A stretch of DNA of 46,484 bases from Pseudomonadota bacterium (GCA_046050825.1 JBJOPJ010000001.1:1-46484), one strand, 5' to 3'; shown: positions 6,724 to 38,523, counted from the first letter of the stretch. The notes: a model not told the origin generated them from the sequence alone. Numbers and translations are program-made.

Positions 6724-6724
6724 C

Positions 6725-10836: not shown

Positions 10837-10846
10837 TTTGGGCCTG

Positions 10847-20629: not shown

Positions 20630-22189
20630 TTAAACCGCGGCGGTGCTTTGCCCCAGTTCCGGGATACCAATCGAACGCCGGCCCTGAAAATCGGTGCGGA
20701 CCACGATCAGCCCGCTTTTTTCGAAATGCTCCAGCAGGCGGCGAATCCGGCCAGGCGAAGTGGTGCCATAGGCGCGGGCCAGCGCGTCGTCTTCGGGGCA
20801 AGGCTCGCCATCAACCGCCGCGCGCGCGATCAGCAGGAACGGGGCCAGCGCATCGTCGGGCACGGTTTCCGCCAGTGCGCGAAGCGGCGTCCATTCGGGG
20901 GCATCGGGATCGGCAATGCCGGCCACGGCCATTGCAAAGCGTCGCCGAAACCGGGTGACATCGCCCACATGCGCTCCGATCCGCCGCATCCGGCACCGCA
21001 CAGTGAAATCCTGAAACAGCGAAGCGACCTGCTGGAAGGTGGCGTTTTCTTCGGCCGCCATGTCCGCGAAAATTTCGGCCAGAATGGCGCGCACGTCTTC
21101 GGGCGGAAGCGATGGCGGGGCCGGGACCGATGCCGCGTTGAACAAGTCGGCCCCTCCAGCAGAGGTCGCATCGGGCGCGCTATCGGTGCCACCATCCAGG
21201 CCGGGGCCATCGGCCAGCGCGAAATCGGAAATGCGGTTGATCAGCTCGCCCGGATCGATCCGGGCCGGTTCGGCGCGCGCCATCGTGGGGGCGGATTGCC
21301 CCGCTGCCGCCAGTTCTTCCTCGCTCCATTCGGCGTGCAGCAAGGCGTGCAATTCGTCCGAGCCAGCCGAAGGCATCGGCATCAGCCCCTGGATCGTGTT
21401 GCGCGCCGCAGTTCGGACGCTGCCGATCCGCACCGGGATGGCGCGCCGCGAAATCGCCGGGCCAAGCCCCAGGAACTGACCGCGTTCAAGATCGCGGATC
21501 TGTTCGGCCTGGCGGCGGTCCATCCCCAAGAGATCGGCGGCACGGGCCATGTCGATATCCAGGAACGTGCGCCCCATCAGGAAATTGCTGGCCTCGGCCG
21601 CAACGTTCTTGGCCAGTTTGGCCAGCCGCTGGGTGGCGATGATCCCGGCCAGTCCGCGCTTGCGCCCGCGGCACATCACGTTGGTCATCGCGGCGAGCGA
21701 GATCCGGCGCACTTCATCGGACACATCGCCCGCGGCGGCCGGGGCAAACATCTGGGCTTCGTCCACCACCACCAGCGCGGGATACCACTGTTCGTGCGGG
21801 GCATCGAACAGAGCGGACAGAAACCGCGCGGCGCAGCGCATCTGGGCTTCCAGTTCCAGCCCGTCCAGCGCCAGCACCACCGAGGCCCGGTGGCGGCGGA
21901 TGCGCGCCGCCAGTTGCGCGATTTCGGGGCCGTCATAGGCCGCACCGTCGATCACCACGTGCCCGAACGGTTCGGCCAGCGAGACGAAATCGCCTTCGGG
22001 ATCGATAATCACCTGCTGGACCAGCGGGGCGCTTTCTTCGAGCAGGCGGCGCAGCAGGTGCGATTTGCCCGAGCCAGAGTTGCCCTGAACCAGCAGGCGC
22101 GTTGCCAGCAGTTCTTCGATGTCCACGCGGACAGGGGCACCGTCGGGTGCAGTACCGATGACAATCGCGGCGCTCACCCGCGTTCCCAT
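20630..22189 (-). CDS. HerA/FtsK-superfamily P-loop ATPase (DUF87-like) with putative C-terminal winged helix
   Basis: Walker A GNSGSGKS, IDPEGDF, Walker B VVVDEAQ, arginine finger RGRKRG, ATQR. Confidence 0.85.
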   Translation of the reverse strand: MGTRVSAAIVIGTAPDGAPVRVDIEELLATRLLVQGNSGSGKSHLLRRLLEESAPLVQQVIIDPEGDFVSLAEPFGHVVIDGAAYDGPEIAQLAARIRRHRASVVLALDGLELEAQMRCAARFLSALFDAPHEQWYPALVVVDEAQMFAPAAAGDVSDEVRRISLAAMTNVMCRGRKRGLAGIIATQRLAKLAKNVAAEASNFLMGRTFLDIDMARAADLLGMDRRQAEQIRDLERGQFLGLGPAISRRAIPVRIGSVRTAARNTIQGLMPMPSAGSDELHALLHAEWSEEELAAAGQSAPTMARAEPARIDPGELINRISDFALADGPGLDGGTDSAPDATSAGGADLFNAASVPAPPSLPPEDVRAILAEIFADMAAEENATFQQVASLFQDFTVRCRMRRIGAHVGDVTRFRRRFAMAVAGIADPDAPEWTPLRALAETVPDDALAPFLLIARAAVDGEPCPEDDALARAYGTTSPGRIRRLLEHFEKSGLIVVRTDFQGRRSIGIPELGQSTAAV

Positions 22190-22279
22190 AGGTCAGGCGC
22201 GCACGCCGACAAACCGGGGGCGGCGGCTTATCCGCAGCCAAGCGGCCTGAACCGCGCGGATTTCAATGCAACTGGGAAT

Positions 22280-23107
22280 TCAGAGAAAGGTGCGGCGCAT
22301 TCGCTGCCGGTCGGCCTTGTGGCCGGTAAAGATTTCGAACGCCATGGCGGCTTGGCCGATCACCATGCCGCTGCCGTCCAGCACGCGGCAGCCGCGTTCC
22401 CGCGCGATCCGCAGCAGTTCGGTTTCCAGCGGGAAATAGACGATATCGGCCACCCAGTGGCGGGCTTCGATCAGCGCCGGGGCGATCGCGGTGCCGGGCT
22501 TGGAGGCCATGCCCATCGGGGTGGTGTTGACGATGCCGTCGATCGCGGTTGTATCCAGCGCGGCGGCATCGCGGGGCACCGCCCGGCCGGCGCCATAGTG
22601 CGCGCACAGCCGCTCGGCCAGTTCGCTGGACCGGGCCAGATCGACATCGGTGATTTCCAGCTGCCCCACGCCCAGCGACAGGAGCGCGTTGGCCACGGCC
22701 GAACCCGCGCCGCCAGCGCCCAGTTGCAGCACCCGGTCAAGCTTGGCGCCGGGCAGGCCATCGGCCAGGCTGTCTTGAAATCCGGTCTTGTCGGTATTGT
22801 AGCCGATCAGGCGGCCATCACGCATCGCCACGGAATTGACCGCGCCAACGGTGGCCGCACATTCGGCCAGTTCATCCAGCAGCGGCAGCACCGCCTGCTT
22901 GAACGGGAAAGTAACATTGACCCCGCAATAGCCTTCGCCGGCAAGGCGGCGCAGCAGGGGGCCAAGCTGCGCATCATCAAGGCCGCGATCGGTGAAATCG
23001 AACAGCTCGTAAGTCAGTTCGAGGCCCTGCGCGCGCGCTTCCTGCTCGTGCAGCCATGGCGAGCGTGAGGCGAGGATGGCGCGACCGAGGAGGCCGGAAC
23101 GAAACAT
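22280..23107 (-). CDS. aroE: Shikimate/quinate dehydrogenase, probably NAD-preferring catabolic type
   Basis: SRSPWLH, NVTFPFK, AVN, NTD, GAGGAG, NTTPMGM, DIVYFPLET; DVD in place of the NRT NADP motif. Confidence 0.9.
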   Translation of the reverse strand: MFRSGLLGRAILASRSPWLHEQEARAQGLELTYELFDFTDRGLDDAQLGPLLRRLAGEGYCGVNVTFPFKQAVLPLLDELAECAATVGAVNSVAMRDGRLIGYNTDKTGFQDSLADGLPGAKLDRVLQLGAGGAGSAVANALLSLGVGQLEITDVDLARSSELAERLCAHYGAGRAVPRDAAALDTTAIDGIVNTTPMGMASKPGTAIAPALIEARHWVADIVYFPLETELLRIARERGCRVLDGSGMVIGQAAMAFEIFTGHKADRQRMRRTFL

Positions 23108-23120
23108 AAGACCCTTTAGG

Positions 23121-23157
23121 AAAAAAGAGGCCGGCGCCGCACAGGGCGGCGCCGGCC
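23121..23157 (-). terminator. Rho-independent terminator after the TonB-dependent receptor
   Basis: Perfect 12-bp stem GGCCGGCGCCGC/GCGGCGCCGGCC, 5-nt loop, followed by TCTTTTTT on the minus strand. Confidence 0.85.
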
Positions 23158-23169
23158 ATCAAGGGTGGA

Positions 23170-26166
23170 TCAGAAGCCGAACTTCAGGCCGAGGTAGTAC
23201 GAGCGGCCAATCGGATCATACAGCGCGGTATCGGTGCCGTTCTGCGAGCTGGCCACGAAGGGCAGGCTCTTGTTGAACAGGTTGTTCGCACCCATGCGCA
23301 GTTCGAAGTCCTTGGTCACCTTGACGTTGGCGAACAGGTCAAACAGCGAATAGGCAGACACGCCGACTTGCGCATTGGCGGGGGTCAGAACGGCCGAGTT
23401 GTCCTTCAGCGCGCTCTGGTAACGCCAGCGCAGACCGCCGCTGACCACGTCCGACTTGTAGCCGAAAGTGGTCAGACCCTTCCACCGCGGGGTGGCGCGC
23501 GGCGGGATCGAACCCGGGCTGGTGCCACCGACGCTGACGCCCGTGTAATCGAGGAACGCGGCGCCCGGCAGCAGCTGCACCTTGTAGCTGTTCAGCCAGC
23601 CGATCGCGGTGTCGACATAGAGCTTGCCCGACTGCGCGATGAACGGAGCCGGCACGCCCAGGTGGGCCTGCACTTCGACGCCGTCGGTCTTCAGTTCGCC
23701 AAGGTTGAGGTAGGGCGTGGCGACGTTCAGGATCTGGCCGGTCGATGCATCGCGGCTGATCAGCCCGCAATAGCTGTTCGTTGCGCTGTAGGTGGGGTTC
23801 GAACCATCAAGGTTGAAGCACTTCGACAGCACGGTCAGGCCCGGAACGCTCGAGATCACGTTCTTGATCTTGATGTTGTAGTAATCGACCGAGAGCGAGA
23901 AATCGCCCAGCAGGCCGCTGCCACGCGGTGCGTTGAACACGAAGCCGAGGTTGAAGGTATCGGCCCGTTCCGGCGTCAGCCCGGTGTTGCCCGCCACGAC
24001 CTGGCCGGTCGCGGTGGTCGGGAACTGGTAGCTGCTGATCACTGCCGAAGGCACGCCCTGGGCAACGCACAGCGCCGAAACCTGGGCGCCATTGGCACCG
24101 GTGCGGGCACCGGTGCGAACGTCGCACGGATCGCCCAGCGAGCTCGGCGGAGTGCCAATCACCAGCTGCGTGCCCTGCGGCGGCGAGAACAGTTCGCCGA
24201 TGTTGGGCGCACGCACGGCGCGCTGGTAGCTGCCGCGGACCAGCAGGTTGTCAACCGGGCGCCAGCGGGCGTCGGCTTCGTAGCTGGTTACCGAACCGGT
24301 CACCGAATAGTCCGAAACGCGGACAGCCGCACCCACGCCCAGTTCACGGGCAAAGGGCTTGTCGGCCAGCAGCGGAACGTCGACCTGTGCGGCGAATTCC
24401 TTGACCGAAACCGCCTTCTTGGCGACCGGCAGGGTGTTGACCACGCCTTCGATGTTGGCGGCGGTGTTGGTCGGCGCATAGATGTTGAACGCGTTCGGCG
24501 CGACCAGATCGCTATCGGGCGAGTACGAGTAGCTGTTGCGGCGATAGTCGGCGACCAGCGCGATCTGGGCCGGACCGGCGCCAAGATCGAACAGCTTGCC
24601 GTTGACCTGGCCCTGCACCTGCACCTGACCCAGCTTTTCGACGCTGCGGGCATCCTTCGTGATGAAGGCGATGCACTGCGGCGAAAGCGAGCGGGCGTTG
24701 GCGTCGCCAAACGGGTTGAAGCCACCGGCGCAGAGCGAACGGCCGCCGTCAGCCGCGTTCAGCAGCTGCTGAACCTGGCTTTTCAGCACGGCGTTGTGCA
24801 TCGTCTGGTTGTGGTGCGATTCATCGTAGCTGGTGAACAGGTCGAAGTTCCAGCCGTCGGCGATTTCGCCCTTCACGCCGGCCAGGTACTGCAGGACCTG
24901 GTAGTTTTCATCCCAGTTCTTCCAGGGAACGCCCACATAGCGCGCGTTCCAGTTGAACGTGGCCGTGGCATTCGGGCGCGAAGCCAGAATGGTGCGCAGA
25001 TCGGCGGGGATGAACGGGTTGGTGGTGGGGATGGTCGTCGTTGCCGGGAACTGGGTCAGGCTGCCGCCGCTGGCGGTGTTGACCGACAGGTCGACGTACA
25101 TGAACTGGCCATAGACGTTCAGGCTGGGGGTCAGGTCATAGTCGGCCTTGACGAAGGCGGTCTTGCGCTCAAGCGAATTGAGCAGCTGGGCCTGCTGGCC
25201 CACCGGCATGCGAACGTTGCCGCCCACCACCATGTAGCCGTTGCCGTCGGTCGGACCCTTGTAGTTGACGGCGCGGGTCTGCGTGAACAGGGTGCCATCA
25301 TTGTTGAAGCCGAAATTGCCCAAGCCAGCGCCAGAGGTCACACCGGTGAGGTTCAGCGGGGTGTTGTAGCTGGTGAACAGGGTTTGGAGCGCGGTCAGGC
25401 TGGGCGCATTGGTGGCGCTGGGCACGAACGTGCCGGTGCCGATGAACGAAGACGGCGTCTTGTCATGGAAGAACGAACGCGCGGTGCCGGCCAGCGGGTC
25501 TTGCTTGGCATAGCTGAACGCAGCGGTCACGTGGCCGCGGCCGTCGCCAAAGCTGGAACCGAACGCAACCGAGCCGTTGAACTTGTAGGCATCACCGCGC
25601 TCGCTGAGCGAGTTGAGCAGGTCGATCTTGACGCCTTCGAACTTCTTGATGGTCTTGAAGTTGACCACGCCCGACATGGCGTCCGAACCGTAAACCGCCG
25701 AAGCGCCGCCGGTGATCGTGTCGATCCCGCCGATGATGGCATCGGGCAGGATGTTGATGTCAACGTTGCCGGCGATGTCCGAAACGGGCAGGCGCTTGCC
25801 GTCAAGCAGCACGAGGTTGCGGTTGGTGCCCAGGCCGTGAAGGTTGATCGAAGCGCGACCGCCGGTGCCCTGGCCGCCCGTGCCGGCGTTGCCGCCAACA
25901 GTGAAGCTGGGGATCTGGTTCAGCGCATCGTTCAGGTTGGCGGCGCCGCTTTCCTTGATCGCGGCCTCAGACACGGTGACGATCGGGCTGACCGCGGTGT
26001 TGTTGGGGCGCTGGATCAGCGAGCCGGTGACGACGATGACTTCGTTGTCCTTGGCGCTGGTGGCGCTGTCCGTGGCGGCATCTTGTGCCAGAGCCGGAGT
26101 CGCAAGGGCGACGGCGAATGAAAACAGCGATGCGGAAACCGCAAGGCGCGAGCCAAACTTGTGCAT
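23170..26166 (-). CDS. TonB-dependent receptor
   Basis: Signal peptide ending ALA-Q, TonB box VIVVTGS, plug motifs NLVLLDGKR and GGASAVYGSDAMSGVVNF, RAPNIGELF, terminal YYLGLKFGF; SD GGGAGG before ATG 26166. Confidence 0.96.
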   Translation of the reverse strand: MHKFGSRLAVSASLFSFAVALATPALAQDAATDSATSAKDNEVIVVTGSLIQRPNNTAVSPIVTVSEAAIKESGAANLNDALNQIPSFTVGGNAGTGGQGTGGRASINLHGLGTNRNLVLLDGKRLPVSDIAGNVDINILPDAIIGGIDTITGGASAVYGSDAMSGVVNFKTIKKFEGVKIDLLNSLSERGDAYKFNGSVAFGSSFGDGRGHVTAAFSYAKQDPLAGTARSFFHDKTPSSFIGTGTFVPSATNAPSLTALQTLFTSYNTPLNLTGVTSGAGLGNFGFNNDGTLFTQTRAVNYKGPTDGNGYMVVGGNVRMPVGQQAQLLNSLERKTAFVKADYDLTPSLNVYGQFMYVDLSVNTASGGSLTQFPATTTIPTTNPFIPADLRTILASRPNATATFNWNARYVGVPWKNWDENYQVLQYLAGVKGEIADGWNFDLFTSYDESHHNQTMHNAVLKSQVQQLLNAADGGRSLCAGGFNPFGDANARSLSPQCIAFITKDARSVEKLGQVQVQGQVNGKLFDLGAGPAQIALVADYRRNSYSYSPDSDLVAPNAFNIYAPTNTAANIEGVVNTLPVAKKAVSVKEFAAQVDVPLLADKPFARELGVGAAVRVSDYSVTGSVTSYEADARWRPVDNLLVRGSYQRAVRAPNIGELFSPPQGTQLVIGTPPSSLGDPCDVRTGARTGANGAQVSALCVAQGVPSAVISSYQFPTTATGQVVAGNTGLTPERADTFNLGFVFNAPRGSGLLGDFSLSVDYYNIKIKNVISSVPGLTVLSKCFNLDGSNPTYSATNSYCGLISRDASTGQILNVATPYLNLGELKTDGVEVQAHLGVPAPFIAQSGKLYVDTAIGWLNSYKVQLLPGAAFLDYTGVSVGGTSPGSIPPRATPRWKGLTTFGYKSDVVSGGLRWRYQSALKDNSAVLTPANAQVGVSAYSLFDLFANVKVTKDFELRMGANNLFNKSLPFVASSQNGTDTALYDPIGRSYYLGLKFGF

Positions 26167-26212
26167 GGTTTTCCCTCCCATTGCCGGCGCGTTTGCCGGC
26201 CTGCGATGTTTC

Positions 26213-26240
26213 ATTTATGTTACGAACTAGTTCCTGTCAA
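26213..26240 (-). promoter_or_regulatory. Sigma70-like promoter of the TBDR with an operator-like motif (26222-26239) in the spacer
   Basis: Minus strand TTGACA-GGAACTAGTTCGTAAC-ATAAAT; palindromic core GAACTAGTTC. Confidence 0.7.
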
Positions 26241-26241
26241 T

Positions 26242-27480
26242 TTATTCAGAAACGCGGTTTTCCGAAATGCGACGAACTGCAACCACGCAGGCCGCGCACA
26301 GCAGCAGTGGCACGCAGTAGCTCGCGAACAGGATCGGCAGCGCAACTTTGGCGGCCATCAGGTATCCGCCCAGCATCGGGCCGATGATCGCCCCGCTGCG
26401 GCCAATGCCGATCGCCCAGCCGATTCCGGTTGCCCGGAACGCCGCGGGATAGACCGATGCCGCCAGCGGCCAGACCCCGTTGTATCCACCTTGCAGCAAG
26501 ACCCCGATCAGGAACGCCACCGCCAGCGTGGCGCCTACCGACATGCTGACCGAACCGAACACCAGCATTGCGGCTGCCGCGCCGGTCAGCATCGCGGGAA
26601 CCAGTCGGCCCAGCGGCACGCGCACGGCCAGTACGCTCATCGCGCTGGTGCCGATGAACGCGCCGAAGCTGTACAGCGACCCGGCGTAAATGCCGTTGGT
26701 TTCGGACAGCCCGGCCTCGATCGACAGCTTGGGGATCCAGCTGACGATGAAGTACAGCACCATCAGGCCGAAGAACACCGCGCCCCACAGCGCCAGCGTG
26801 CTGAGCCGGAAGGCCGGCACGAACAGCGCGGCCACGCGGCCCGCGGGCGCGCCATCGGCATCAACATGGGCCGGGGCGCTGGCATCGCTCAGCATTTTCC
26901 AGGCGAACGGGAACAGCGCCACGGTGATCGCGCCGGCGCCGGTCAGAATGTGCTGCCAGGAATAATGGGGCAGCAACCGGGCCACGATCAGGCCGGTGAA
27001 CGCGGCCGCGAACGGATAGCCCGCCTGGACCATCCCCACGGCAAGGTTGGCGTGATGCGGCGGGGCGCTTTCAGCCGACAGCGCCGCCATCGATGCCAGC
27101 ACCGTGCCAATGCCAGCGCCAACCAGCACCCGCAGGCCGAACAGCTGCGCGGCGTTGCTGGCCAGGCCGCTGGCCAACATGCCCAAAGACATCAGCGCCA
27201 GCGCGATCAGGATCACTTTGCGCCGGCCAAACCGATCCGCCAGCGGGGCGATGCCCATTCCGCCGATCGCCATGCCCAGCAATCCGGCGCTGAACAGGTT
27301 GCCCATCACATCGGAACCGATCTGCCAGTCATTCTGGATGCGCGGCGCGATATAGGACAGGATCGTCACGTCGATCCCGTCGGCCATGTTGATCGCAAAG
27401 CACAAGGCCACGATCCCGAATGCGCGCCGCGTCCAGTTCGCAGGCGCGCCGGCAGGCGCGGTGATAGGGGTTGCAGCCAT
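26242..27480 (-). CDS. MFS transporter, aromatic acid:H+ symporter family
   Basis: DGID in TM1, LADRFGRR, YPAAFRATGIGWAIGIGRSG. Confidence 0.9.
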   Translation of the reverse strand: MAATPITAPAGAPANWTRRAFGIVALCFAINMADGIDVTILSYIAPRIQNDWQIGSDVMGNLFSAGLLGMAIGGMGIAPLADRFGRRKVILIALALMSLGMLASGLASNAAQLFGLRVLVGAGIGTVLASMAALSAESAPPHHANLAVGMVQAGYPFAAAFTGLIVARLLPHYSWQHILTGAGAITVALFPFAWKMLSDASAPAHVDADGAPAGRVAALFVPAFRLSTLALWGAVFFGLMVLYFIVSWIPKLSIEAGLSETNGIYAGSLYSFGAFIGTSAMSVLAVRVPLGRLVPAMLTGAAAAMLVFGSVSMSVGATLAVAFLIGVLLQGGYNGVWPLAASVYPAAFRATGIGWAIGIGRSGAIIGPMLGGYLMAAKVALPILFASYCVPLLLCAACVVAVRRISENRVSE

Positions 27481-27555
27481 TGTCCTCTTTCCCGGTTTAT
27501 TGGCCGGGATGAAACGACAGGACAGGCTGCGAAGGGCGCGGCGGCCCGGCGCAGG

Positions 27556-28314
27556 TCAGCCCTGGCGCATCACCCAAGCGATGATGATGTCCGCCACCTG
27601 GCTCGCCCGGCGATCAACGGCTTCGGGGCTCGACATGTCGATCCCGAAGTTGTGCGCGAAAGTGAACTGATTGGAGACGTTGTAGAAACTCAGCGCGGTC
27701 ATGTTCATGTGCAGTTCGACCGGGTCGATGCCGGGGCGGAAACTGCCTTCGGCTTCGCCGCGCTCGATGATCCGCGACAGGATTTCGATGACCTTGCGGT
27801 TGCCTTGCGGCAGCCCTTCGATCTGCTTCAGGTGATCGGCGCGGTGGATGTTCTCGTTCATCACCAGCCGCACCAGTTCGGGGTGCTGCGAGTGGTAGCG
27901 CACATCGTGTTCGATCAGGCGGCGAAGGGCATCGATCGCGCTGCCGGCCTCGATATCGACCCCGCTTTCGCTGTCGCGGACCCGCTGATAGGCGCGTTCC
28001 AGCACGGCGCGGTACAGTTCGTCCTTGCCGTCGAAATAATAGTAGATCTTGCGCTTGGTGGCCTTGCCCGCAATCTCGTCGATCCGCGCGCCGGCCAGGC
28101 CCTTTTCGACGAATTCGTCGGTGGCGATGTCGATGATCTGATTGATTGCCTGCTCGCGCGCTTCGGCATGGCTGCGGCGCGGCGGCTTTTCAGGCTTGGT
28201 CAACGGTGGAACTCCTTCGGCTGCCCCGCGATGCGCGCAATCGGTCGCTGCCGCCGGCGTATCTGCCCGGTCGTTAGCGGCTATTGGCCGTTGCGTCTCT
28301 AGGGCAGTGCGCAA
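27556..28314 (-). CDS. TetR/AcrR family regulator
   Basis: EFVEKGLAGARIDEIA...IYYYFDGKDELY HTH; LVMNENIH, FYNVSNQFTF C-terminal domain; start uncertain. Confidence 0.9.
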   Translation of the reverse strand: MRTALETQRPIAANDRADTPAAATDCAHRGAAEGVPPLTKPEKPPRRSHAEAREQAINQIIDIATDEFVEKGLAGARIDEIAGKATKRKIYYYFDGKDELYRAVLERAYQRVRDSESGVDIEAGSAIDALRRLIEHDVRYHSQHPELVRLVMNENIHRADHLKQIEGLPQGNRKVIEILSRIIERGEAEGSFRPGIDPVELHMNMTALSFYNVSNQFTFAHNFGIDMSSPEAVDRRASQVADIIIAWVMRQG

Positions 28315-28363
28315 AGTTCCTCCAAAATGTGTGGCCCGGAATGTACGGCCGGAAATTTGTGGG

Positions 28364-28381
28364 ACGAACTAGTTCCTATCA
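28364..28381. promoter_or_regulatory. Second copy of the putative TetR operator, ACGAACTAGTTCCTATCA
   Basis: 17/18 identical to 26222-26239; lies in the tetR/quiC divergent region next to a minus-strand TTGACA (28392-28397). Confidence 0.75.
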
Positions 28382-28463
28382 TTTTTGCTTTTGTCAATCC
28401 ACGGCCGGTGATAGACCTTTGCGATGACGGCCGGTGAAGCCGGCAATCAACTGGGGAAGCGGG

Positions 28464-30356
28464 ATGAAGACCTCGATCGCGACGGTTTCGATCAGCGGTG
28501 CGCTTGATGCCAAGCTGCGGGCCATCGCCGATGCGGGCTTTGCGGGCGCCGAAATCTTTGAAAACGATCTGCTTTCATCGCATCTTTCCGCCCCCGAAAT
28601 TGCCAGCCTGATGCGCGATCTGGGGCTGGCCTGCACGATGTTCCAACCCTTCCGAGACCTTGAAGGGCTGCCCGACGCGCAGCGGACTCGCGCGTTCGAC
28701 CGGCTTGAGCGCAAATTCGACGTGATGGGTGAACTGGGCACCGATCTGCTACTGGTCTGTTCCAGCTGTTCGCCGCAGGCCGATGGCGATCGTGGCCGAA
28801 TTCTGGCCGATCTGGCCGAAGCGGGCGAACGTGCCGCCGCGCGGGGCTTGCGAATCGGTTACGAAGCTTTGGCCTGGGGCCGCCACGTCAACGACCACCG
28901 CGATGCGTGGGCGCTGGTGCGCGATGTCGATCACCCGGCGCTGGGGCTGGTGCTGGACAGCTTCCATTCGCTGTCGCGCAAGATCCCGTCCAGCAGCATC
29001 GGCGATATCCGCGCCGACAAGCTGTTCATCGTGCAAGTGGCCGATGCGCCGCTGCTCGATATGGATTACCTTGGCTGGAGCCGCCACTTCCGCTGCATGC
29101 CGGGGCAGGGCGAATTCCCGCTGGACGATTGGGCCGACGCGATCCGCAAGATCGGTTACCAAGGGTATTGGAGCCTTGAAATCTTCAACGATCGCTTCCG
29201 CGCCGGTTCGGCCAGCGGGGTGGCGCTGGATGGCTATCGCTCGCTGCGGCTGCTCGAAGGCGGGGTTGCCCGGCCCGCTTCGGCCAATGCGGTTTCAGAG
29301 AGTGCTCCGTTGCCCGCCCGTGCAACGCCGGTGGGCGTGGAATTCATCGAATTTGCCGCCAGCCACGAAGAAGCCGAAGCGCTGGGCGCGATGCTGCGCC
29401 CGCTGGGCTTCCGCCCGACCGCGCGGCATCGCTCGAAGGATGTGACCCGGTGGAACCAGGGGCCGATCAACCTGGTGATCAATTGCGAACCCGAAGGCCT
29501 CGCGCACAGTTTTGATATCGTTCACGGTGCTTCGGTCTGTGCGATCGGGCTGGCGGTAAACGATGTGCCGGGCGCCTTGGCGCGGGCCGATGCGCTGCGC
29601 GTGCCGCGCTTCGAACAGGCGATCGCGCCGGATGAATGGCCGATCCCCAGCGTGCGCGGGGTGGGCGGCAGCCTGCTCTATCTGGTCGATGCGGCCACGC
29701 GCGACGCGATGTGGGCGCATGAATTTCCGACCCCGCTGGAACCGGCCGATCCCGCCCCCAAGTTGACCGGGATCGACCACGTTGCCCAGACCATGCAGTT
29801 CGAGGAATTCCTCAGCTGGCTGCTGTTCTATGTCAGCCTGTTCGAGCTGGGGAAGACCCCGCAGCTGGAAATCGCCGATCCGATGGGGCTGGTGCAAAGC
29901 CAGGCGGTGGAATCGCCCGACCGTTCGGTGCGCTTCACGCTTAACGGATCGCTGGCGAACCAGTCGCTGTCGTCGCGCTTCATCCAGAACTATTTCGGGG
30001 CCGGGGTGCAGCATATCGCCTTTGCCTGCACCGACATTTTCGCCGCCGCGGATGCGGCGATTGCCGCGGGCCTGCCCAGCCTGGACATCCCGCGCAATTA
30101 TTATGACGATCTCGAAGCGCGCTGGGGGCTTGATCCTGATCTGATCGAAGCCATGGCCGCGCGCAACATCCTGTACGACCGCACCGTTGAACCCGATGGC
30201 AGCGAAACCGAATACTTCCAGCTTTATAGCCGCGCGTTTGCCCGCCGGGTGTTCTTTGAGCTGGTCGAACGCCGCGGCTATGCCGGGTATGGCGCGGTCA
30301 ACGCGCCGATCCGGCTGGCCGCGCAAGCGCGCTACAAACCGGAATTCCTCGATTAA
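28464..30356 (+). CDS. quiC: 3-dehydroshikimate dehydratase, QuiC1-type (TIM-barrel isomerase domain fused to an HPPD-like domain)
   Basis: MKTSIATVS, EIFEND, FQPFRD, YEALAWG, LDSFH, SLEIFND; C-terminal DHVAQ, GVQHIAF, FFELVERRGYAGYGA. Confidence 0.9.
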   Translation: MKTSIATVSISGALDAKLRAIADAGFAGAEIFENDLLSSHLSAPEIASLMRDLGLACTMFQPFRDLEGLPDAQRTRAFDRLERKFDVMGELGTDLLLVCSSCSPQADGDRGRILADLAEAGERAAARGLRIGYEALAWGRHVNDHRDAWALVRDVDHPALGLVLDSFHSLSRKIPSSSIGDIRADKLFIVQVADAPLLDMDYLGWSRHFRCMPGQGEFPLDDWADAIRKIGYQGYWSLEIFNDRFRAGSASGVALDGYRSLRLLEGGVARPASANAVSESAPLPARATPVGVEFIEFAASHEEAEALGAMLRPLGFRPTARHRSKDVTRWNQGPINLVINCEPEGLAHSFDIVHGASVCAIGLAVNDVPGALARADALRVPRFEQAIAPDEWPIPSVRGVGGSLLYLVDAATRDAMWAHEFPTPLEPADPAPKLTGIDHVAQTMQFEEFLSWLLFYVSLFELGKTPQLEIADPMGLVQSQAVESPDRSVRFTLNGSLANQSLSSRFIQNYFGAGVQHIAFACTDIFAAADAAIAAGLPSLDIPRNYYDDLEARWGLDPDLIEAMAARNILYDRTVEPDGSETEYFQLYSRAFARRVFFELVERRGYAGYGAVNAPIRLAAQARYKPEFLD

Positions 30357-30387
30357 GCCAGCATACCAAACCCAGGGAGAGTATTCG

Positions 30388-31404
30388 ATGATGCACACCA
30401 CGATTGGCCGCAAGCTTGGCCTGCTGGCTGCCCCTGCCGCTATGGCCGCCGCTATGCTTGGCGCCGTGGCCAGCCATGCAGCCACTCCGGCCCCGCGCGA
30501 TTTTGCAGTGGCCGATGCACCGGTCCTCGAAGACCGTTTCCCGGTGCAGCCGGTGGTGTTCCCCGGCGGGGTCAAGGCATACCGCGATGTCGCCTATCAG
30601 CAGCTGCCGGGCTATATCCCGCAAGTGGTCGATATTTACGTTCCCGCCAGCAAGGGCCCGCACCCGCTGGTGCTGTATATCCACGGCGGCGGCTGGGTTG
30701 GCGGGCATACCCGCCATTCGGGCGCGCTGGCCAATTTCCCGGCGGTGCTGGCCAAGCTGGCGGCCGAAGGCTTTACGGTTGCCAGCCTTGAATACCGCCT
30801 GTCGGGCGAAGCCAAGTTTCCCGCGCAAGTGCAGGACGCCAAGGCCGCGCTGCGGTTCCTTGGCGATCATGCTGCCCAGTACAAGGTTGATCCCACCCGC
30901 GTGGGCATCTGGGGCGGATCGGCCGGCGGCCATCTGACCGCGCTGACCGCGCTGAGCTGCCATGACACCACGCTGGACCCCAAGGCTGATAAGGACGTGT
31001 GCGCCACGGCCGCGGTAACGTGGTACGGCGTGTTTGATTTCGGCGCACTGGTGGCGGCGCGCCCCGGTGGGGTGGACGATGCCGCGGTTCGGCTGATGGG
31101 CTGCACCGGCGCCTGCACGCCCGAACAGCTCGCCTATGCCAGCCCGGTTACCTATATCGACGCCAAGGACCCGCCGTTCCTGCTGATCCATGGGGACGAA
31201 GACAAAGTGGTGCCAGTGATCCAGTCGCACTTGGCCGAAACGCGGCTGCGCGCGGCCGGTGTGCCGGTTGAAACGATCTACATCCCCGGCGTCGATCACA
31301 GCTTTATCGGCCATACCCCGGCTGAAACCCGTGCTGCCACGCTGAAGGCCACCAACGCCACGTTCGATTTCTTCCACGCCAAGTTGGGAGTAGCGGGCAA
31401 GTGA
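30388..31404 (+). CDS. Exported alpha/beta-hydrolase (HSL/BD-FAE-like esterase)
   Basis: Signal peptide ending SHA-A, HGGGW, nucleophile GGSAGG, IHGDEDKVVP, DHSF; SD GGGAGA. Confidence 0.88.
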   Translation: MMHTTIGRKLGLLAAPAAMAAAMLGAVASHAATPAPRDFAVADAPVLEDRFPVQPVVFPGGVKAYRDVAYQQLPGYIPQVVDIYVPASKGPHPLVLYIHGGGWVGGHTRHSGALANFPAVLAKLAAEGFTVASLEYRLSGEAKFPAQVQDAKAALRFLGDHAAQYKVDPTRVGIWGGSAGGHLTALTALSCHDTTLDPKADKDVCATAAVTWYGVFDFGALVAARPGGVDDAAVRLMGCTGACTPEQLAYASPVTYIDAKDPPFLLIHGDEDKVVPVIQSHLAETRLRAAGVPVETIYIPGVDHSFIGHTPAETRAATLKATNATFDFFHAKLGVAGK

Positions 31405-33011
31405 TCCGGCGGGCGCTGATTGCGTTGCTCCTGCTGCTGGCCGGGGCTGCCGCCGCTCAGGCGCAGCCCGTGCCGCCAGCGGCCGCGATCCCAGTGGCCG
31501 CGATCCCAGTGGATGGCGGGCTGGTCGAAGGGGCCAGCCTGCCGTCGGGGGTCGATGCGTGGCTGGGGGTGCCGTTTGCCGCCCCGCCGCTGCGAGACTT
31601 GCGCTGGAAGGCGCCGCAACCAGTGGCCGCCTGGCCCGGCGTGCTGCACGCGGATCGCTTTGCGCCCGAATGCCTGCAGCCGCTACGCAGCCCGCGCCAG
31701 AACCACTATTTCGGCAACGAAGCGACCAGCGAGGATTGCCTCTACCTCAATATCTGGGCGCCCCAGGGCGTGCGCCAAAAGCTGCCCGTGGTGGTGTGGA
31801 TCTATGGCGGCGGGTTCAATATCGGTTCGGCCGCGATGGCCAATTATTCGGGCGAGCCGCTGGCCAAGGCCGGCGTGGTGCGGGTCAACATCGCCTACCG
31901 GGTTGGCGCGCTGGGCTTTATGGCCCACCCGCAGCTCAGCGCGGAATCCGGTTACAACGGTTCGGGCAATTACGGCCTGATGGACCAAATCGCCGCGCTG
32001 CAATGGGTGCAGCGCAATATCGCCAAGTTTGGCGGCGATCCGGCCAATGTCACGATTGTCGGCCAATCGGCCGGGTCGATGTCGGTGGCGCTGTTGCAGC
32101 TTAGCCCGCAGGCCAAGGGCCTGTTCCAGCGCGCGGTGGGGATGAGCGGCAGCCCGTTTGGCGGGATGCTTGGCCCGGTGCCGCTGGCCAAGGCCGAAGC
32201 CCAAGGGCTGGCGCTGCAACAGGAACTGGGCGCGGCATCGCTGGCCGATTTGCGGGCGCTGCCCGGTGACCGGGTGGCCGCCGCGATCAGCCCGCGCGAT
32301 CCGATCGTGCTGGATGGCAAAGTGCTGACCGGCAGTGCCGAAGACACGTTCGCCGCCGGGCAGCAAAGCGATGTGCCGGTGCTGATCGGCTATACCCGCG
32401 ATGAAAGCTTCCGACCGCTGGGGCCGGTGGCCAGCGCGGCCGATCTCGATGCGGCGCTGCGCGCGCGCTATCCGCAAACCGCCGCTGCCATTCTGGCCGC
32501 TTATGCCGGGGCCGATCCCGCCCGCGCCGCGGCGGATATCGCGCGCGACAGCACGGTTGGGTTGCAAATGGCGCAGTGGGCCAAGGCGCAGCAGCGCTAC
32601 GGCAAGGCCGCGGCCTATGCCTATCTGTTCACTCGCCGCCAGCCTTATGCCCCCGGCATTACTTTCAGCGATCACGATCCGGCCACCGTCGGGGCCTATC
32701 ACACCGGCGATGTGCCCTATTGGCTGCGGACCCGCGCTGCGCTGAACTTGTTCCGGGTGACGCGGAACTGGGAGCCGGGCGATGTTGCGCTGGAAGGTGA
32801 AATGTCAGCCGCGTTGCTGTCGTTCGCGCGCAGCGGCGTGCCCACTAGCCCGGCGCTGGGGCAATGGCCGCGGTTCGATCCGGCGCGTCCGCGCCTGATC
32901 TGGCTGGGAACCGAAAGCAAGCCGATCAGCTGGCCGCACCTGGCCGATATGGGGCTGTTTGCCGGCAGCGCCGCGCAGACCCGCCCCGCCGGAACCAAGC
33001 CGCGCGATTGA
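31401..33011 (+). CDS. Exported type-B carboxylesterase
   Basis: Signal peptide, GVPFAAPP, SEDCLYLNIW, YGGGF, GQSAG, DE, YHTGD. Confidence 0.92.
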   Translation: MIRRALIALLLLLAGAAAAQAQPVPPAAAIPVAAIPVDGGLVEGASLPSGVDAWLGVPFAAPPLRDLRWKAPQPVAAWPGVLHADRFAPECLQPLRSPRQNHYFGNEATSEDCLYLNIWAPQGVRQKLPVVVWIYGGGFNIGSAAMANYSGEPLAKAGVVRVNIAYRVGALGFMAHPQLSAESGYNGSGNYGLMDQIAALQWVQRNIAKFGGDPANVTIVGQSAGSMSVALLQLSPQAKGLFQRAVGMSGSPFGGMLGPVPLAKAEAQGLALQQELGAASLADLRALPGDRVAAAISPRDPIVLDGKVLTGSAEDTFAAGQQSDVPVLIGYTRDESFRPLGPVASAADLDAALRARYPQTAAAILAAYAGADPARAAADIARDSTVGLQMAQWAKAQQRYGKAAAYAYLFTRRQPYAPGITFSDHDPATVGAYHTGDVPYWLRTRAALNLFRVTRNWEPGDVALEGEMSAALLSFARSGVPTSPALGQWPRFDPARPRLIWLGTESKPISWPHLADMGLFAGSAAQTRPAGTKPRD

Positions 33012-34126
33012 TGCGGCGCGCGGGCCTTGCCCTGCTGGCCGCGCTGGCGCCTATCGGGCTGGCCTGTGCCGGGCTGGCCTGTGTCGCCGCTCCAGCGCGG
33101 GCGCAAGATAGCGCGGTGTGCCCGCCCGATGCTGAGCTGGACTATGTCTGCGGGCCGGAAAAGCCCGAAGACGTGCTGGCTATTCCCGGCACCGATTGGC
33201 TGGTGGCCAGCGGTTTCATGCCCGGCGCGGGGTTGAAGCTGGTCGATGGCAAGGCGCGCAGTTTTCGCCGCTGGTACAGCGCCGCGCCCGCGCAACTGGC
33301 GTGGGACCGGGCGCGCTTTCCCCAATGCCCCGGCCCGCTTGATCCGGCGCTGTTCAACGCGCGCGGGCTGTCGCTGCGGCAAGTTGCGCCGCAGCGCTGG
33401 CAGCTGCTGGCGGTGAATCACGGCGGGCGCGAAGCGATCGAGGCGTTTGACGTTCACACCGACAAAGGCGAACCCCGGTTGATCTGGCGCGGGTGCCAGC
33501 CGCTGCCCGCCGGGCAAGTTGGCAATGCCGTGGCGGCATTTGCCGATGGCACGATTCTGACCACGGTGCTGACCCGGCCCGGCACCACGATCGGCGATTT
33601 CATGCTGGGTAAGATCACGGGCGGGGTATGGCAATGGCGGCCGGGCGATGGGGCTTTCACGCTGCTGCCCGGCACCGAATTGCCGGGCAACAACGGGCTG
33701 GAAATCGATCCCGATGAACAGCGGTTTTATGTGGTGGCGTTCGGCCTGCACGCGGTGGCGGTTTATGATCGGCGCGATACCCGCCAGCCGCAGACGGTGA
33801 TCGCCGCGCCGGATTTCATGCCTGATAACATCCACTGGACCGGCGGGCACTTGTTGCTCGCCGGGATGCGGCTGGATGAACCCGCCTGCGGGGGCCTGCG
33901 CAAAGTGGTGGATGGCAAGGCCGATCCGATGCTGTGCCACCGCGGCTGGGTGGTGGGCGAATTGGATCTGGCGAACCACCGGGTTGCGACGTTCGCCTAT
34001 GGCCATCCCCAGCTGGGCTTCAATGGCGTGTCCGCGGCCGCGCTCAGCGGCGGGGCTTTGTGGCTGGGTTCGTTCCAGTCGGCCCGGATGGCGATCGTTC
34101 GGGATTATCAGGAGACACCACGATGA
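33011..34126 (+). CDS. Exported beta-propeller, SMP-30/gluconolactonase/paraoxonase-like
   Basis: Signal peptide, PED, GLS, VGNAV, NNGLE, PDNIHW metal-ligand pattern; TGATG coupling. Confidence 0.75.
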   Translation: MRRAGLALLAALAPIGLACAGLACVAAPARAQDSAVCPPDAELDYVCGPEKPEDVLAIPGTDWLVASGFMPGAGLKLVDGKARSFRRWYSAAPAQLAWDRARFPQCPGPLDPALFNARGLSLRQVAPQRWQLLAVNHGGREAIEAFDVHTDKGEPRLIWRGCQPLPAGQVGNAVAAFADGTILTTVLTRPGTTIGDFMLGKITGGVWQWRPGDGAFTLLPGTELPGNNGLEIDPDEQRFYVVAFGLHAVAVYDRRDTRQPQTVIAAPDFMPDNIHWTGGHLLLAGMRLDEPACGGLRKVVDGKADPMLCHRGWVVGELDLANHRVATFAYGHPQLGFNGVSAAALSGGALWLGSFQSARMAIVRDYQETPR

Positions 34127-34674
34127 CTGCGCTGCGCCCGTTTTTAGCCGCTATCGCGGCGGCTTTTATCACATCGCCGGTCATGGCTTCGGCCGCGCCC
34201 GATCCGGGCGTTTCGGCCCCGGCGCCGGGGTTGGCTTATGCCTTTTCGGTGCGGGTCACGCTGGCCCCGCCGGTGGAAGTGGGGGATGCCGATGGCGGCC
34301 GCCGCCGCTTCATCGCGATTACTGGCGGCGAAGTTTACGGCCCGCGCCTGCATGGCGCGGTGCTGCCGGGCGGCGGCGATTGGCAAACGATCCTGCCGGG
34401 CGGGCTGACCCGGATCGAGGCCCGCTATTTCCTGAAAGCCGATGATGGCACGGTGATCGAAATCACCAATCCCGGCGTGCGCGTGGCCAGCCCCGAAGTG
34501 ACCCAGCGTTTGGCCAAGGGCGAAAAGGTGGATCCCGCGCTATACTATTTCCGCACCGCGCCGGTGTTCAAAGCGGGCAGCGCGGCCCAAGGCTGGTTGC
34601 AGCGCGCGGTGTTCGTGGGGCGCGGGATCCGCAATCCGGACAGCGTGGTGATCGACTATTACGAAGTGCAATAG
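34123..34674 (+). CDS. DUF3237 family protein with signal-peptide-like N-terminus
   Basis: RRFIAITGG, VLPGGGDWQ, EARY, YYFRTAP, VFVGRG; ATGA overlap with the upstream gene. Confidence 0.85.
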   Translation: MTALRPFLAAIAAAFITSPVMASAAPDPGVSAPAPGLAYAFSVRVTLAPPVEVGDADGGRRRFIAITGGEVYGPRLHGAVLPGGGDWQTILPGGLTRIEARYFLKADDGTVIEITNPGVRVASPEVTQRLAKGEKVDPALYYFRTAPVFKAGSAAQGWLQRAVFVGRGIRNPDSVVIDYYEVQ

Positions 34675-34722
34675 CCGATCCTCCCTACCGCTTCGTTTGC
34701 CGATCCACCCCGCCGGCCCGGC

Positions 34723-36783
<2,061 letters not shown>

Positions 36784-36793
36784 TCAGATCGGG

Positions 36794-37594
36794 TTATTCG
36801 GGGACATAGTTGGGGCGGCGCTTTTCCATGAAGGCGCGCATCCCTTCGGCAAAGTTGGGGCTTTTGCCGGTCATCACCTGGTTGCGGTTTTCGATCGCCA
36901 TCGCGGCTTCCAGGCTGGACGCGTCGATCGCCATTGCCAGCCCCTCCTTGGTCATCCGCAGGCCCATCGGGGACGCGTTCAGCAGATCGTCGATCCATGG
37001 TGCGGCGGCGGCTTCCAGTTGATCGTCCGGCACCACTTCGGCCACCAGCCCCACGGCCAGCGCCCGGTCCGCCTTGATGAACCGCCCGGTCAGCATCAGC
37101 TCCGCCGCGATCGATCCGCCCACCAGGCGCGGCAGGAAATAGCTTACCCCCATGTCGCACGATGACAGGCCGATGCGGATGAAGGCCGCGTTCATCCGCG
37201 CGCTTTCGCCGGCGATGCGGATGTCGCTGGCCAGCGCGAAGGCAAACCCGCCGCCGCAGGCCGGGCCGTGGATCAGCGATACGATCACTTGCGGGCAGCG
37301 CCGCATCTTGATGTAAACATCGGCCAGATAGCCCTGAAAGCCATAGCCCCCGCCGAATGGCACGGCATCGCGGTCGGCGTGTTCCTTGATGTCCAGCCCG
37401 GCGCAGAACGCCTTGCCCGCGCCGCGCATCACCACCACCCGCACGCTGCCATCGTGGTACAGCTTGCCAAAATAGTCGTTCAGTTCGCCGACCATTTCGA
37501 GGCTGATCGAATTGAGCGCATCGGGCCGGTTAAGCGTCAGCCAATCCACTTCGCCCCGCTTTTCGATGGCGATCGTCCGATAGCCTGCAGCCAT
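36794..37594 (-). CDS. Enoyl-CoA hydratase/isomerase (crotonase) family protein
   Basis: LNRPDALN, FCAGLD, GGG, ASDIRIA, LTGR, AFMEKRRP. Confidence 0.92.
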   Translation of the reverse strand: MAAGYRTIAIEKRGEVDWLTLNRPDALNSISLEMVGELNDYFGKLYHDGSVRVVVMRGAGKAFCAGLDIKEHADRDAVPFGGGYGFQGYLADVYIKMRRCPQVIVSLIHGPACGGGFAFALASDIRIAGESARMNAAFIRIGLSSCDMGVSYFLPRLVGGSIAAELMLTGRFIKADRALAVGLVAEVVPDDQLEAAAAPWIDDLLNASPMGLRMTKEGLAMAIDASSLEAAMAIENRNQVMTGKSPNFAEGMRAFMEKRRPNYVPE

Positions 37595-37626
37595 GCCCTC
37601 TCTCCTCGTTCTTGTCGTGTTTGCGA

Positions 37627-37660
37627 TTGCATAACGAACGCTGTTTAGTATGACAAGCGC
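37627..37660 (+). promoter_or_regulatory. Putative promoter for a leaderless tetR, with an imperfect palindrome (operator candidate)
   Basis: TTGCAT-N16-TATGAC-N6-ATG, no SD; GAAC-N3-GTTT in the spacer. Confidence 0.45.
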
Positions 37661-38257: not shown

Positions 38258-38274
38258 TGGCGTTCGTGCTGTTC

Positions 38275-38340
38275 AAATAACCGCAGGCTAAATCACAGGG
38301 GCCAAATAACAGGGGCCAAATAACAGGTAAGCCAGATAAT
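38275..38340. repeat. Imperfect ~14-bp tandem repeat (AAATAACAGGGGCC), 3-5 copies
   Basis: AAATCACAGGGGCC / AAATAACAGGGGCC / AAATAACAGGTAAGCC plus degenerate flanking copies. Confidence 0.75.
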
Positions 38341-38363
38341 CTGCGCCAAGGCGAACTCGCCCG

Positions 38364-38393
38364 TTGACAAGCCCCCCCACCCCCCGCTAGTGG
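38364..38393 (+). promoter_or_regulatory. Putative tRNA promoter
   Basis: TTGACA, C-rich spacer, GCTAGTGG, then a GC-rich discriminator-like stretch upstream of the tRNA. Confidence 0.6.
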
Positions 38394-38436
38394 CGCCCTC
38401 CTACCCGGCGTAGCGCGCTTTTGCGTTATGCCCCGT

Positions 38437-38523
38437 GCCCAGATGGCGGAATTGGTAGACGCACCAGCTTCAGGTGCTGGCGCTCGCAAGGGCGTGGAGG
38501 TTCGAGTCCTCTTCTGGGCACCA
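38437..38523 (+). tRNA. tRNA-Leu (anticodon CAG)
   Basis: Acceptor stem GCCCAGA/TCTGGGC, D loop GGAATTGGTAGAC, anticodon arm CCAGC-TT CAG GT-GCTGG, long variable arm, GTTCGAG T loop, encoded CCA. Confidence 0.97.

What the first reader, a model, noticed from the sequence alone, without database searches (positions are those of the whole stretch)
22280..34674. Candidate TonB-dependent utilisation system for shikimate/quinate esters
Seen: one locus holds a TBDR, an aromatic-acid MFS, TetR, shikimate dehydrogenase and QuiC. Directly behind quiC lie four overlapping, signal-peptide-bearing genes: an HSL-like esterase, a type-B carboxylesterase, a paraoxonase/lactonase-like propeller and DUF3237. 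Established: shikimate dehydrogenase plus QuiC1 convert shikimate to protocatechuate. Inference: the locus works like a PUL/CUT system for plant cyclitol esters. The intact ester (caffeoyl/coumaroyl/galloyl-shikimate or -quinate, chlorogenate, quinide lactones) would enter through the TBDR, be cleaved in the periplasm, and the cyclitol acid would be imported by the MFS and aromatised. I do not know of a described system with this architecture.
Basis: partly seen in the sequence, partly recalled or inferred. Interest (0 to 1): 0.75.

Follow-up and report, generated by a model that had tools for sequence, protein, structure and literature searches.

The report
TonB-linked locus for plant quinate esters
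A conserved cluster of bacterial genes, sharing one predicted regulator-binding site, pairs a TonB-dependent outer-membrane receptor and predicted exported hydrolases with quinate/shikimate breakdown enzymes, and likely lets sphingomonad bacteria scavenge plant esters such as chlorogenic acid.

Summary
Observation confirmed. All nine genes are present as described. QuiC keeps 10/10 active-site residues of QuiC1, both esterases have intact Ser-acid-His triads, and the propeller folds like paraoxonase PON1. The set is one unit. In an even draw of 300 family genomes, all 8 close TBDR orthologues and all 7 close propeller orthologues lie beside quiC. A 24-bp palindrome scores highly at only two places in the genome: ahead of the TBDR operon and of the quiC-hydrolase operon. 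In rearranged loci it moves ahead of the esterase. All 14 genomes with esterases beside their qui genes carry hydroxycinnamoyl-CoA lyase (67/300 overall), and five fetched quiC+esterase loci abut such genes. Best reading (0.55): uptake and periplasmic cleavage of hydroxycinnamoyl-quinate/shikimate esters. Caveats: no substrate was tested; a sister TBDR clade sits with the cyclitol genes without esterases, so the receptor may carry the free acid; the propeller has Arg at PON1's catalytic His115; DUF3237 is variable; aroQ is outside the locus. It is a TonB version of Acinetobacter's qui-hca cluster: a new variant, not a new kind.

The parts
22280..23107 (-). Second, likely catabolic and NAD-preferring quinate/shikimate dehydrogenase (PRK12549 subfamily)
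   Evidence: best PDB hit 3JYO quinate/shikimate dehydrogenase, E 1.6e-68; a separate AroE is on contig C26
23129..23157 (-). Terminator-like 12-bp GC hairpin with T run between the TBDR and sdh; would lower read-through into sdh
   Evidence: consensus scan; 12 terminator-like sites found against 10.8 expected overall, so weak on its own
23170..26166 (-). TonB-dependent receptor, 998 aa, with leader peptide
   Evidence: its clade is tied to qui genes
26217..26240 (.). Predicted TetR operator 1 (palindrome, core ACGAACTAGTTCC), overlapping a TTGACA hexamer on the minus strand ahead of the TBDR
   Evidence: 36.0 bits
26242..27480 (-). MFS transporter, aromatic-acid-symporter-like, predicted to import the cyclitol acid
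   Evidence: replaced by an ACS-family MFS in several related loci
27556..28314 (-). TetR regulator (TetR_C_29); start at 28314 or 28203
28359..28382 (.). Predicted TetR operator 2, between divergent tetR and quiC
   Evidence: 32.6 bits
28464..30356 (+). QuiC1-type two-domain 3-dehydroshikimate dehydratase
   Evidence: R64 L97 E134 L136 D165 H168 Q191 S206 R210 E239 all present
30388..31404 (+). est1: BD-FAE-family (HSL-like) esterase with leader; triad S178-D272-H304
   Evidence: all three invariant in 54 of 54 aligned sequences
31401..33011 (+). Type-B carboxylesterase with leader; S223-E335-H434
   Evidence: Ser and His 47/47, acid E 32 or D 15
33011..34126 (+). PON1-like beta-propeller with leader; predicted Ca ligands kept, His115 equivalent replaced by Arg118
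34123..34674 (+). DUF3237 (UPF0311) protein with leader; variable member

Best explanation
The locus is a conserved gene set with two copies of one palindromic box, and it likely forms a TetR regulon that scavenges plant hydroxycinnamoyl-quinate/shikimate esters (chlorogenate-type). Steps: (1) The TBDR would carry the ester, probably recognising its cyclitol-carboxylate end, into the periplasm (inferred). (2) The exported BD-FAE-type and type-B esterases would split it into hydroxycinnamate and quinate or shikimate (triads shown; location predicted; substrate inferred). (3) The MFS would import the cyclitol acid (inferred). (4) The second SDH would oxidise it; quinate needs the genome's single AroQ on another contig, shikimate does not. 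QuiC then gives protocatechuate (family chemistry, active site shown intact). (5) Protocatechuate would go to the ligABC/IJU 4,5-cleavage genes and the acyl part to the hydroxycinnamoyl-CoA lyase/vdh genes elsewhere in the genome (genes shown). (6) TetR would repress tbdr-sdh, tetR-mfs and quiC-est1-coe-propeller-duf through the two boxes (box shown; binding inferred). The propeller and DUF3237 are accessory, with unresolved roles.
For: Linkage, even draw of 300 genomes of the family (105 genera counting G000's, >=90% complete): QuiC in 19. TBDR at >=58% identity in 8, all 8 beside quiC. Propeller at >=53% in 7, all 7 within about 11 kb of quiC, while 8 distant propellers (33-42%) are in genomes with no QuiC match. 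est1 at >=47% in 10, all 10 QuiC genomes. Named genomes: of the 36 of 78 quiC loci at >=59% identity, 22 hold TBDR plus a hydrolase and 14 hold TBDR, SDH and all three hydrolases; 1 of the other 42 does. Reciprocal metagenome search: of 31 TBDR loci at >=50%, 23 hold a hydrolase and 25 SDH; 0 of 49 weaker ones do. Gene order is reshuffled in Steroidobacteraceae, Caulobacterales and metagenome loci, and L109 fuses the propeller to the carboxylesterase. Regulation: a matrix from 15 relatives' sites scores only two sites above 15 bits in the 2.27-Mb genome, both in this locus. The core occurs twice in the window against 0.00 expected. In L185 and L189 the box lies 71 and 64 nt ahead of est1, which there leads est1-coe-propeller-quiC; L212 has a similar box ahead of est1. 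Acyl group: est1's nearest structures include BD-FAE, a feruloyl/acetyl esterase. Tannase/feruloyl-esterase genes replace or join the set in L173, L176, L179. p-Hydroxycinnamoyl-CoA hydratase/lyase over its cutoff adjoins quiC in L018, L037, L038, L063, L093 and G075. It is present in 14 of 14 drawn genomes with esterases beside their qui genes, 2 of the 5 other QuiC genomes, and 51 of 281 without QuiC. The own genome has it, plus vdh and lig genes. The nearest DUF3237 structure is RPA1785, whose tag lies between TarM (RPA1784) and CouP (RPA1789) of the R. palustris coumarate cluster.
Against: No substrate was tested. A well-supported sister TBDR clade (42-43%; L191, L192, L194) lies with SDH, TetR and an ACS-MFS but no esterase within about 10 kb, so the receptor family may serve the free acid. 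L096 and L115 hold TBDR plus propeller with no qui gene within 10 kb. aroQ is in only 3 of the 36 close loci and not in this one. The propeller lacks the His115 base. No DUF3237 at >=50% in 36 close named loci. The box was not found in several divergent loci (e.g. L036, L042, L093, L106, L109-L112). Aromatic degraders carry many aromatic genes anyway and kin are not independent, so 14/14 overstates the hydroxycinnamate link. BD-FAE-family members also act on acetyl esters. The COesterase's nearest structure is a fumonisin esterase, so family gives no substrate. No FerA-type ADP-forming ligase or tannase was found in the own genome; only a 47% AMP-type ligase.
Confidence: 0.55

Rival explanations
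1. Same ester-using regulon, but the TBDR scavenges only free quinate/shikimate; esters are cleaved outside or cross by other routes.
For: The sister TBDR clade sits with SDH, TetR and an MFS without esterases. Unrelated TBDR families also sit beside quiC without esterases (L177, L180). The TBDR is co-transcribed with sdh, not with the hydrolases, in this layout.
Against: Within the >=53% TBDR clade, all 16 metagenome loci of 15 kb or more hold a hydrolase. The leaders predict periplasmic enzymes, which need the ester to cross the outer membrane. DdvT shows a TBDR carrying an aromatic dimer in a sphingomonad.
Confidence: 0.22
2. The regulon serves other cyclitol conjugates: galloyl-quinates/shikimates, acetylated cyclitols or quinide lactones, not hydroxycinnamoyl esters.
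For: Tannase-family genes in 3 of the 19 drawn quiC loci. BD-FAE also has acetyl esterase activity. The propeller is PON1-like with an Arg that could bind a carboxylate. The own genome has a second LigB-family gene (42% on C19) that might cleave gallate (not tested).
Against: Repeated physical joining to hydroxycinnamoyl-CoA lyase clusters and the 14/14 co-occurrence. DUF3237 lies inside a vdh-lyase-ligase operon in G075. The PF07519 family includes feruloyl esterases.
Confidence: 0.17
3. An ordinary quinate/shikimate locus; the exported hydrolases are passengers carried on a mobile island.
For: Patchy distribution (8 of 300 genomes), integrase genes beside L182, L185 and G099's locus, one copy on a plasmid (L032).
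Against: Hydrolases stay with the core through many reorderings, overlap translationally, take the box when they lead the operon, are fused in L109, and are swapped for a different esterase family elsewhere. Flanking fadH, ech, tetR2 and amidohydrolase are not conserved.
Confidence: 0.05

Closest known systems
Acinetobacter baylyi ADP1 pca-qui-pob-hca cluster (chlorogenate, quinate, hydroxycinnamate catabolism)
   Same: Links chlorogenate/hydroxycinnamate genes with quinate-to-protocatechuate genes (passages; Smith 2003 seen as a title only). Recalled, not read: an exported chlorogenate esterase HcaG and porins HcaE/QuiX.
   Different: ADP1 converts quinate in the periplasm with QuiA/B/C. Here an SDH and two-domain QuiC1 without leaders are used, a TonB receptor replaces porins, the esterases are BD-FAE and type-B families plus a PON1-like propeller, and the regulator is TetR.
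CUT loci of Xanthomonas/Caulobacter (Blanvillain 2007, PMC1790865)
   Same: TBDR, inner-membrane transporter, regulator and degradative enzymes in one locus.
   Different: No glycoside hydrolase or lyase; the target would be a phenolic cyclitol ester, ending in protocatechuate.
Sphingobium SYK-6 DdvT-DdvK-DdvR (PMC6874591)
   Same: Sphingomonad TBDR plus inner-membrane transporter and repressor beside aromatic catabolic genes.
   Different: The substrate is a lignin biphenyl dimer; no exported hydrolases or cyclitol enzymes in the passages read; MarR regulator. DdvT was not compared by sequence.
C. glutamicum qsuABCD / P. putida QuiC1
   Same: QuiC1/QsuB-type dehydratase with the same ten active-site residues; SDH nearest to 3JYO.
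   Different: qsuABCD serves the free acids, in an organism without TonB receptors (recalled); this locus lacks its own dehydroquinase and adds a TBDR and exported hydrolases.
Sphingopyxis MTA144 fum cluster
   Same: A sphingomonad type-B carboxylesterase (FumD, nearest structure 8S6D) frees an acid that a symporter and catabolic genes of the cluster supposedly use. A TBDR in that cluster is recalled, not seen.
   Different: Different ester (fumonisin tricarballylate); no qui genes.
Paraoxonase PON1 / SGL propellers
   Same: Fold (top ten Foldseek hits PON1, TM about 0.70); predicted metal ligands E53, D54, N172, N228, D272, N273 and the His134 equivalent conserved.
   Different: His115 equivalent is Arg in 25/30 linked orthologues against His in 94/105 distant relatives; 17-18% identity.

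Membership tests
CUT locus | TBDR beside an inner-membrane transporter and a regulator | tested here: met
   definition read
CUT locus | Carbohydrate-degrading enzymes and sugar-related regulator | tested here: not met
   No glycoside hydrolase or lyase among the nine genes; only est1 resembles carbohydrate esterases. Works like a CUT locus, is not one.
CUT locus | TBDR induced by, and needed for, high-affinity uptake of the substrate | not testable with these tools
   Needs uptake assays
QuiC1/QsuB dehydroshikimate dehydratase | Two domains (TIM barrel + HPPD-like) and the ten active-site residues | tested here: met
QuiC1/QsuB dehydroshikimate dehydratase | NCBIfam NF042435 equivalog cutoff | tested here: not met
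   647 bits against 1200
Catabolic quinate/shikimate dehydrogenase (QsuD-like) | Second SDH distinct from AroE, acidic residue in the cofactor loop | tested here: met
   PRK12549 over cutoff; D154 aligns with the Asp of 3JYO; housekeeping AroE has ARN there. The link of this Asp to NAD preference is recalled.
Catabolic quinate/shikimate dehydrogenase (QsuD-like) | Oxidises quinate as well as shikimate | not testable with these tools
   PRK14027 250 bits against cutoff 515
Acinetobacter qui-hca cluster | Periplasmic QuiA/B/C route and hca genes in the same cluster | tested here: not met
   No PQQ dehydrogenase, dehydroquinase or hca gene in this locus; some relatives have them
Chlorogenate/feruloyl esterase | Alpha/beta hydrolase with intact Ser-acid-His triad | tested here: met
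Chlorogenate/feruloyl esterase | Hydrolyses caffeoyl/feruloyl-quinate | not testable with these tools
   Needs enzyme assay
PON1-type lactonase | Propeller fold with Ca-ligand set | tested here: met
   PON1 ligand numbers other than His115/His134 are recalled
PON1-type lactonase | His115-His134 catalytic dyad | tested here: not met
   Arg118 at His115; role of His115 read
TetR regulon | Conserved palindrome ahead of each operon | tested here: met
TetR regulon | The locus's TetR binds the box and is released by an effector | not testable with these tools
   Needs EMSA

The most novel reading that the evidence does not exclude
A PUL-like regulon for a non-sugar plant metabolite, moving among alpha- and gammaproteobacteria. 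Its TBDR clade is an outer-membrane receptor for intact chlorogenate-type esters, and its His-to-Arg paraoxonase-like propeller and DUF3237 are new periplasmic activities on cyclitol or hydroxycinnamate compounds (for example a quinide lactonase).
Probability: 0.3. Interest if true: 0.7.

Novelty: new variant of a known kind. Interest (0 to 1): 0.5.

Why it matters
Chlorogenates and related esters are abundant plant phenolics (own knowledge), and how TBDR-rich sphingomonads reach them is not described in the papers my searches returned. The locus gives directly testable assignments: a substrate class for an orphan TBDR clade, a TetR operator, two candidate bacterial chlorogenate esterases from families not known to me for this role, and context for two uncharacterised families (a bacterial PON1-like propeller with a changed catalytic residue, and DUF3237). 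It also bears on funnelling plant extracts to protocatechuate in Novosphingobium/Sphingobium hosts.

Tried and rejected
Single-sequence fold of the propeller failed (pLDDT 34.7); the 30-sequence alignment worked. The single-sequence PDB search for the propeller gave only DFPase at E 0.76. The sigma-70 scan found 0 promoters in 22000-35000. Expression: one RNA run with a 0.10 word share. Its contigs gave a few exact 151-360-nt pieces in the TBDR and est1, but equally sparse pieces on window 1-20000, so nothing can be said on expression or habitat. A phylum-wide est1 search (400 genomes) found 2 besides G000, both in the family. Flanking herA, fadH, ech, tetR2 and amidohydrolase were rejected as members: close matches only in L114 (herA, fadH) and L010 (herA). 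No earlier scan findings were returned. Smith et al. 2003 is not held; its content beyond the title is recalled. The string RPA1785 does not occur in PMC3610893; its place in the cluster is read from neighbouring tags. No complex prediction was run, as no binding is claimed. Gene transfer was not formally tested: the TBDR tree (60 distinct sequences of 66 covering >90% at >=34% identity, FastTree) was only read for esterase co-occurrence. The TBDR genome search scored only 2 candidates per genome and the est1 search 7, and est1 missed G168 (52% by tblastn), so these counts are lower bounds.


Full report
Observation. The region holds, on the minus strand, tetR, an MFS gene, a TBDR gene and sdh, and on the plus strand quiC followed by four genes overlapping by 4, 1 and 4 nt. 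Families: SDH PRK12549 over cutoff, nearest structure the quinate/shikimate dehydrogenase 3JYO. QuiC nearest P. putida QuiC1 5HMQ, with all ten active-site residues listed in PMC7442255 (passages) at the same numbers; it stays under the NF042435 cutoff. est1 is BD-FAE family, nearest 6MLY, 6NKF and BD-FAE itself. The COesterase is nearest fumonisin esterase 8S6D. Both triads are conserved in 54 and 47 aligned sequences. The propeller has no Pfam hit, but its profile finds PON1 (E 1.2e-5), and a pLDDT 94.5 model returns PON1 as the top ten folds; the Atlas agrees. It belongs to a wide family (890 representatives at E<=1e-10). Leaders on the four proteins rest on a crude hydropathy check and on orthologue N-termini. 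The best BLAST hits of QuiC are Novosphingobium and Sphingobium records at 79-85%. The genome has a separate AroE and one AroQ on other contigs, and hydroxycinnamoyl-CoA lyase, vdh and protocatechuate 4,5-cleavage genes.

The genes form one unit. (a) Best 78 quiC loci out of at least 593 in named genomes, biased to close relatives and cut at 10 kb or contig ends. Of 36 at >=59% identity, 23 have the TBDR, 27 est1, 22 the COesterase, 15 the propeller and 14 all of these with SDH; of the other 42 only L063 has TBDR plus hydrolase. (b) Reciprocal TBDR search in metagenomes, best 80 of 174. Of 31 at >=50%, 25 have SDH, 13 QuiC and 23 a hydrolase; of the 16 that are 15 kb or longer, 14, 13 and 16. 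None of the 49 weaker ones has any. (c) Even draw of 300 family genomes: QuiC 19, close TBDR 8 (8 beside quiC), close propeller 7 (7 beside quiC), est1 at >=47% 10 (10 in QuiC genomes, 8 adjacent). Samples (a) and (c) come from the same collection and can overlap. Order is reshuffled repeatedly, including in Steroidobacteraceae (L041, L043) and a Caulobacterales genome (L063). L109 encodes a propeller-carboxylesterase fusion. DUF3237 is variable: none at >=50% in the 36 close named loci, but 56-92% copies in L095, L099, L108, L114, G075 and G099.

Shared regulation. Aligning tetR-quiC intergenic regions showed a conserved palindrome. A matrix from 15 distinct sites of relatives (own site and L114 left out) scores 36.0 and 32.6 bits at 26217 and 28359, and the next site in the genome 14.8. 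The core occurs twice in the window against 0.00 expected. In fetched loci, sites lay ahead of the TBDR 36 times, in the tetR/quiC gap 33-34 times, ahead of an ACS-MFS 3 times, ahead of est1 twice and once unassigned; these counts include training loci and duplicates. The two est1 cases (L185, L189) are loci where est1 leads the hydrolase-quiC operon, so the link survives rearrangement; L212 shows a similar box there. Several divergent loci showed no site. Binding by this TetR is inferred.

Which ester. Hydroxycinnamoyl-CoA hydratase/lyase (NF006588 over cutoff), with vdh, a CoA ligase and/or MarR, adjoins quiC in L018, L037, L038, L063 and L093; L037 and L038 have no esterase in the stretch held. 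G075 carries MarR, MFS, vdh, DUF3237, lyase, ligase, aroQ, sdh, TBDR, tetR, est1, COesterase, propeller, quiC and an ACS-MFS in one run. In the even draw the lyase is in 67 of 300 genomes. It is in 14 of 14 with esterases beside qui genes (12 beside quiC; G087 and G289 in a separate tetR-est1-coe-PQQ dehydrogenase stretch), 2 of 5 other QuiC genomes and 51 of 281 without QuiC. Kinship and general aromatic lifestyle inflate this. Tannase/feruloyl-esterase genes stand in or join in L173, L176 and L179. aroQ and PQQ quinate-dehydrogenase-like genes in some variants point to quinate as at least one product, though this locus alone is complete only for shikimate. DUF3237's nearest structure is RPA1785, between tags RPA1784 and RPA1789 of the R. 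palustris coumarate cluster (passages of PMC3610893).

Against or open. A sister TBDR clade (support 1.0; L191, L192, L194) lies with SDH, TetR and an ACS-MFS and no esterase, so the receptor may recognise the free acid. L096 and L115 hold TBDR and propeller without qui genes. The propeller has Arg where PON1 has His115, proposed as the general base (passages of PMC9607273): Arg 25, His 4, Gln 1 of 30 linked orthologues, against His in 94 of 105 distant ones. It may therefore not be a plain lactonase. The MFS is under all family cutoffs and could carry the aromatic acid instead; its swap for an ACS-family MFS and its presence in esterase-free qui loci (L021, L031, L177) favour the cyclitol. 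The RNA data were too sparse to use.

Comparison with what is known. ADP1's pca-qui-pob-hca cluster already links chlorogenate, hydroxycinnamate and quinate catabolism (passages of PMC4213383, PMC2606687 and PMC2265553; Smith 2003 title only, its esterase and porins recalled). CUT loci (passages of PMC1790865), DdvT (passages of PMC6874591) and the fum cluster (passages of PMC3136697) give the TBDR-transporter-enzyme plan. BD-FAE: abstract and passages of PMC8165983. PMC13741705 and PMC10973024: passages, no bearing beyond background. Seven searches aimed at a sphingomonad TBDR-qui-esterase locus (listings only) showed none. The library lacks most subscription papers, and no supplements were read; SYK-6 or Novosphingobium transcriptome tables could bear on this.

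Verdict. A real, conserved and probably co-regulated locus. It works like a CUT locus and like the ADP1 qui-hca cluster but is a member of neither. New variant of a known kind; interest 0.5; ester-uptake mechanism 0.55; some form of ester-using regulon about 0.9.

Noticed in passing
L109:12805-15297: 830-aa ORF fusing the PON1-like propeller to the type-B carboxylesterase without a second leader.
   Followed up: partly
L010, L020, L095, L182 (e.g. L182:7232-9032): A pair of DUF34/NIF3-like genes sits inside or next to the locus in four relatives.
   Followed up: no
L182:12971-14131, L185:12548-16864, L205:9560-10798; L032: Integrase genes flank the locus in three genomes and one copy is on a plasmid; with the patchy distribution this suggests mobility (not tested).
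   Followed up: no
L093, L099, L108 DUF3237 copies: Their N-termini look like twin-arginine leaders, whereas the window's copy has a Sec-like leader; the own genome has three further DUF3237 paralogues (C2, C28, C145).
   Followed up: partly
L174, L033, L035, L040, L176, L177, L179, L180, L201, L202: Other, more distant TBDR families sit beside sdh/quiC, suggesting repeated recruitment of TBDRs to cyclitol catabolism.
   Followed up: partly
L072: A 55% QuiC homologue on a contig titled Leptospira interrogans, ranked among alphaproteobacterial hits; possibly a contaminant contig.
   Followed up: no
window 34723-40295: FadH-like oxidoreductase, enoyl-CoA hydratase, second TetR and a leader-bearing Amidohydro_3 protein; not conserved with the locus.
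   Followed up: partly
window 20630-22189 and 13813-20393: HerA/DUF87-like ATPase downstream of sdh, and a tamA-tamB-like pair; not part of the locus.
   Followed up: no
G000: The genome is 2.27 Mb in 197 contigs yet scored 100% complete, small beside most relatives listed, and still holds this locus and many aromatic-catabolism genes.
   Followed up: no
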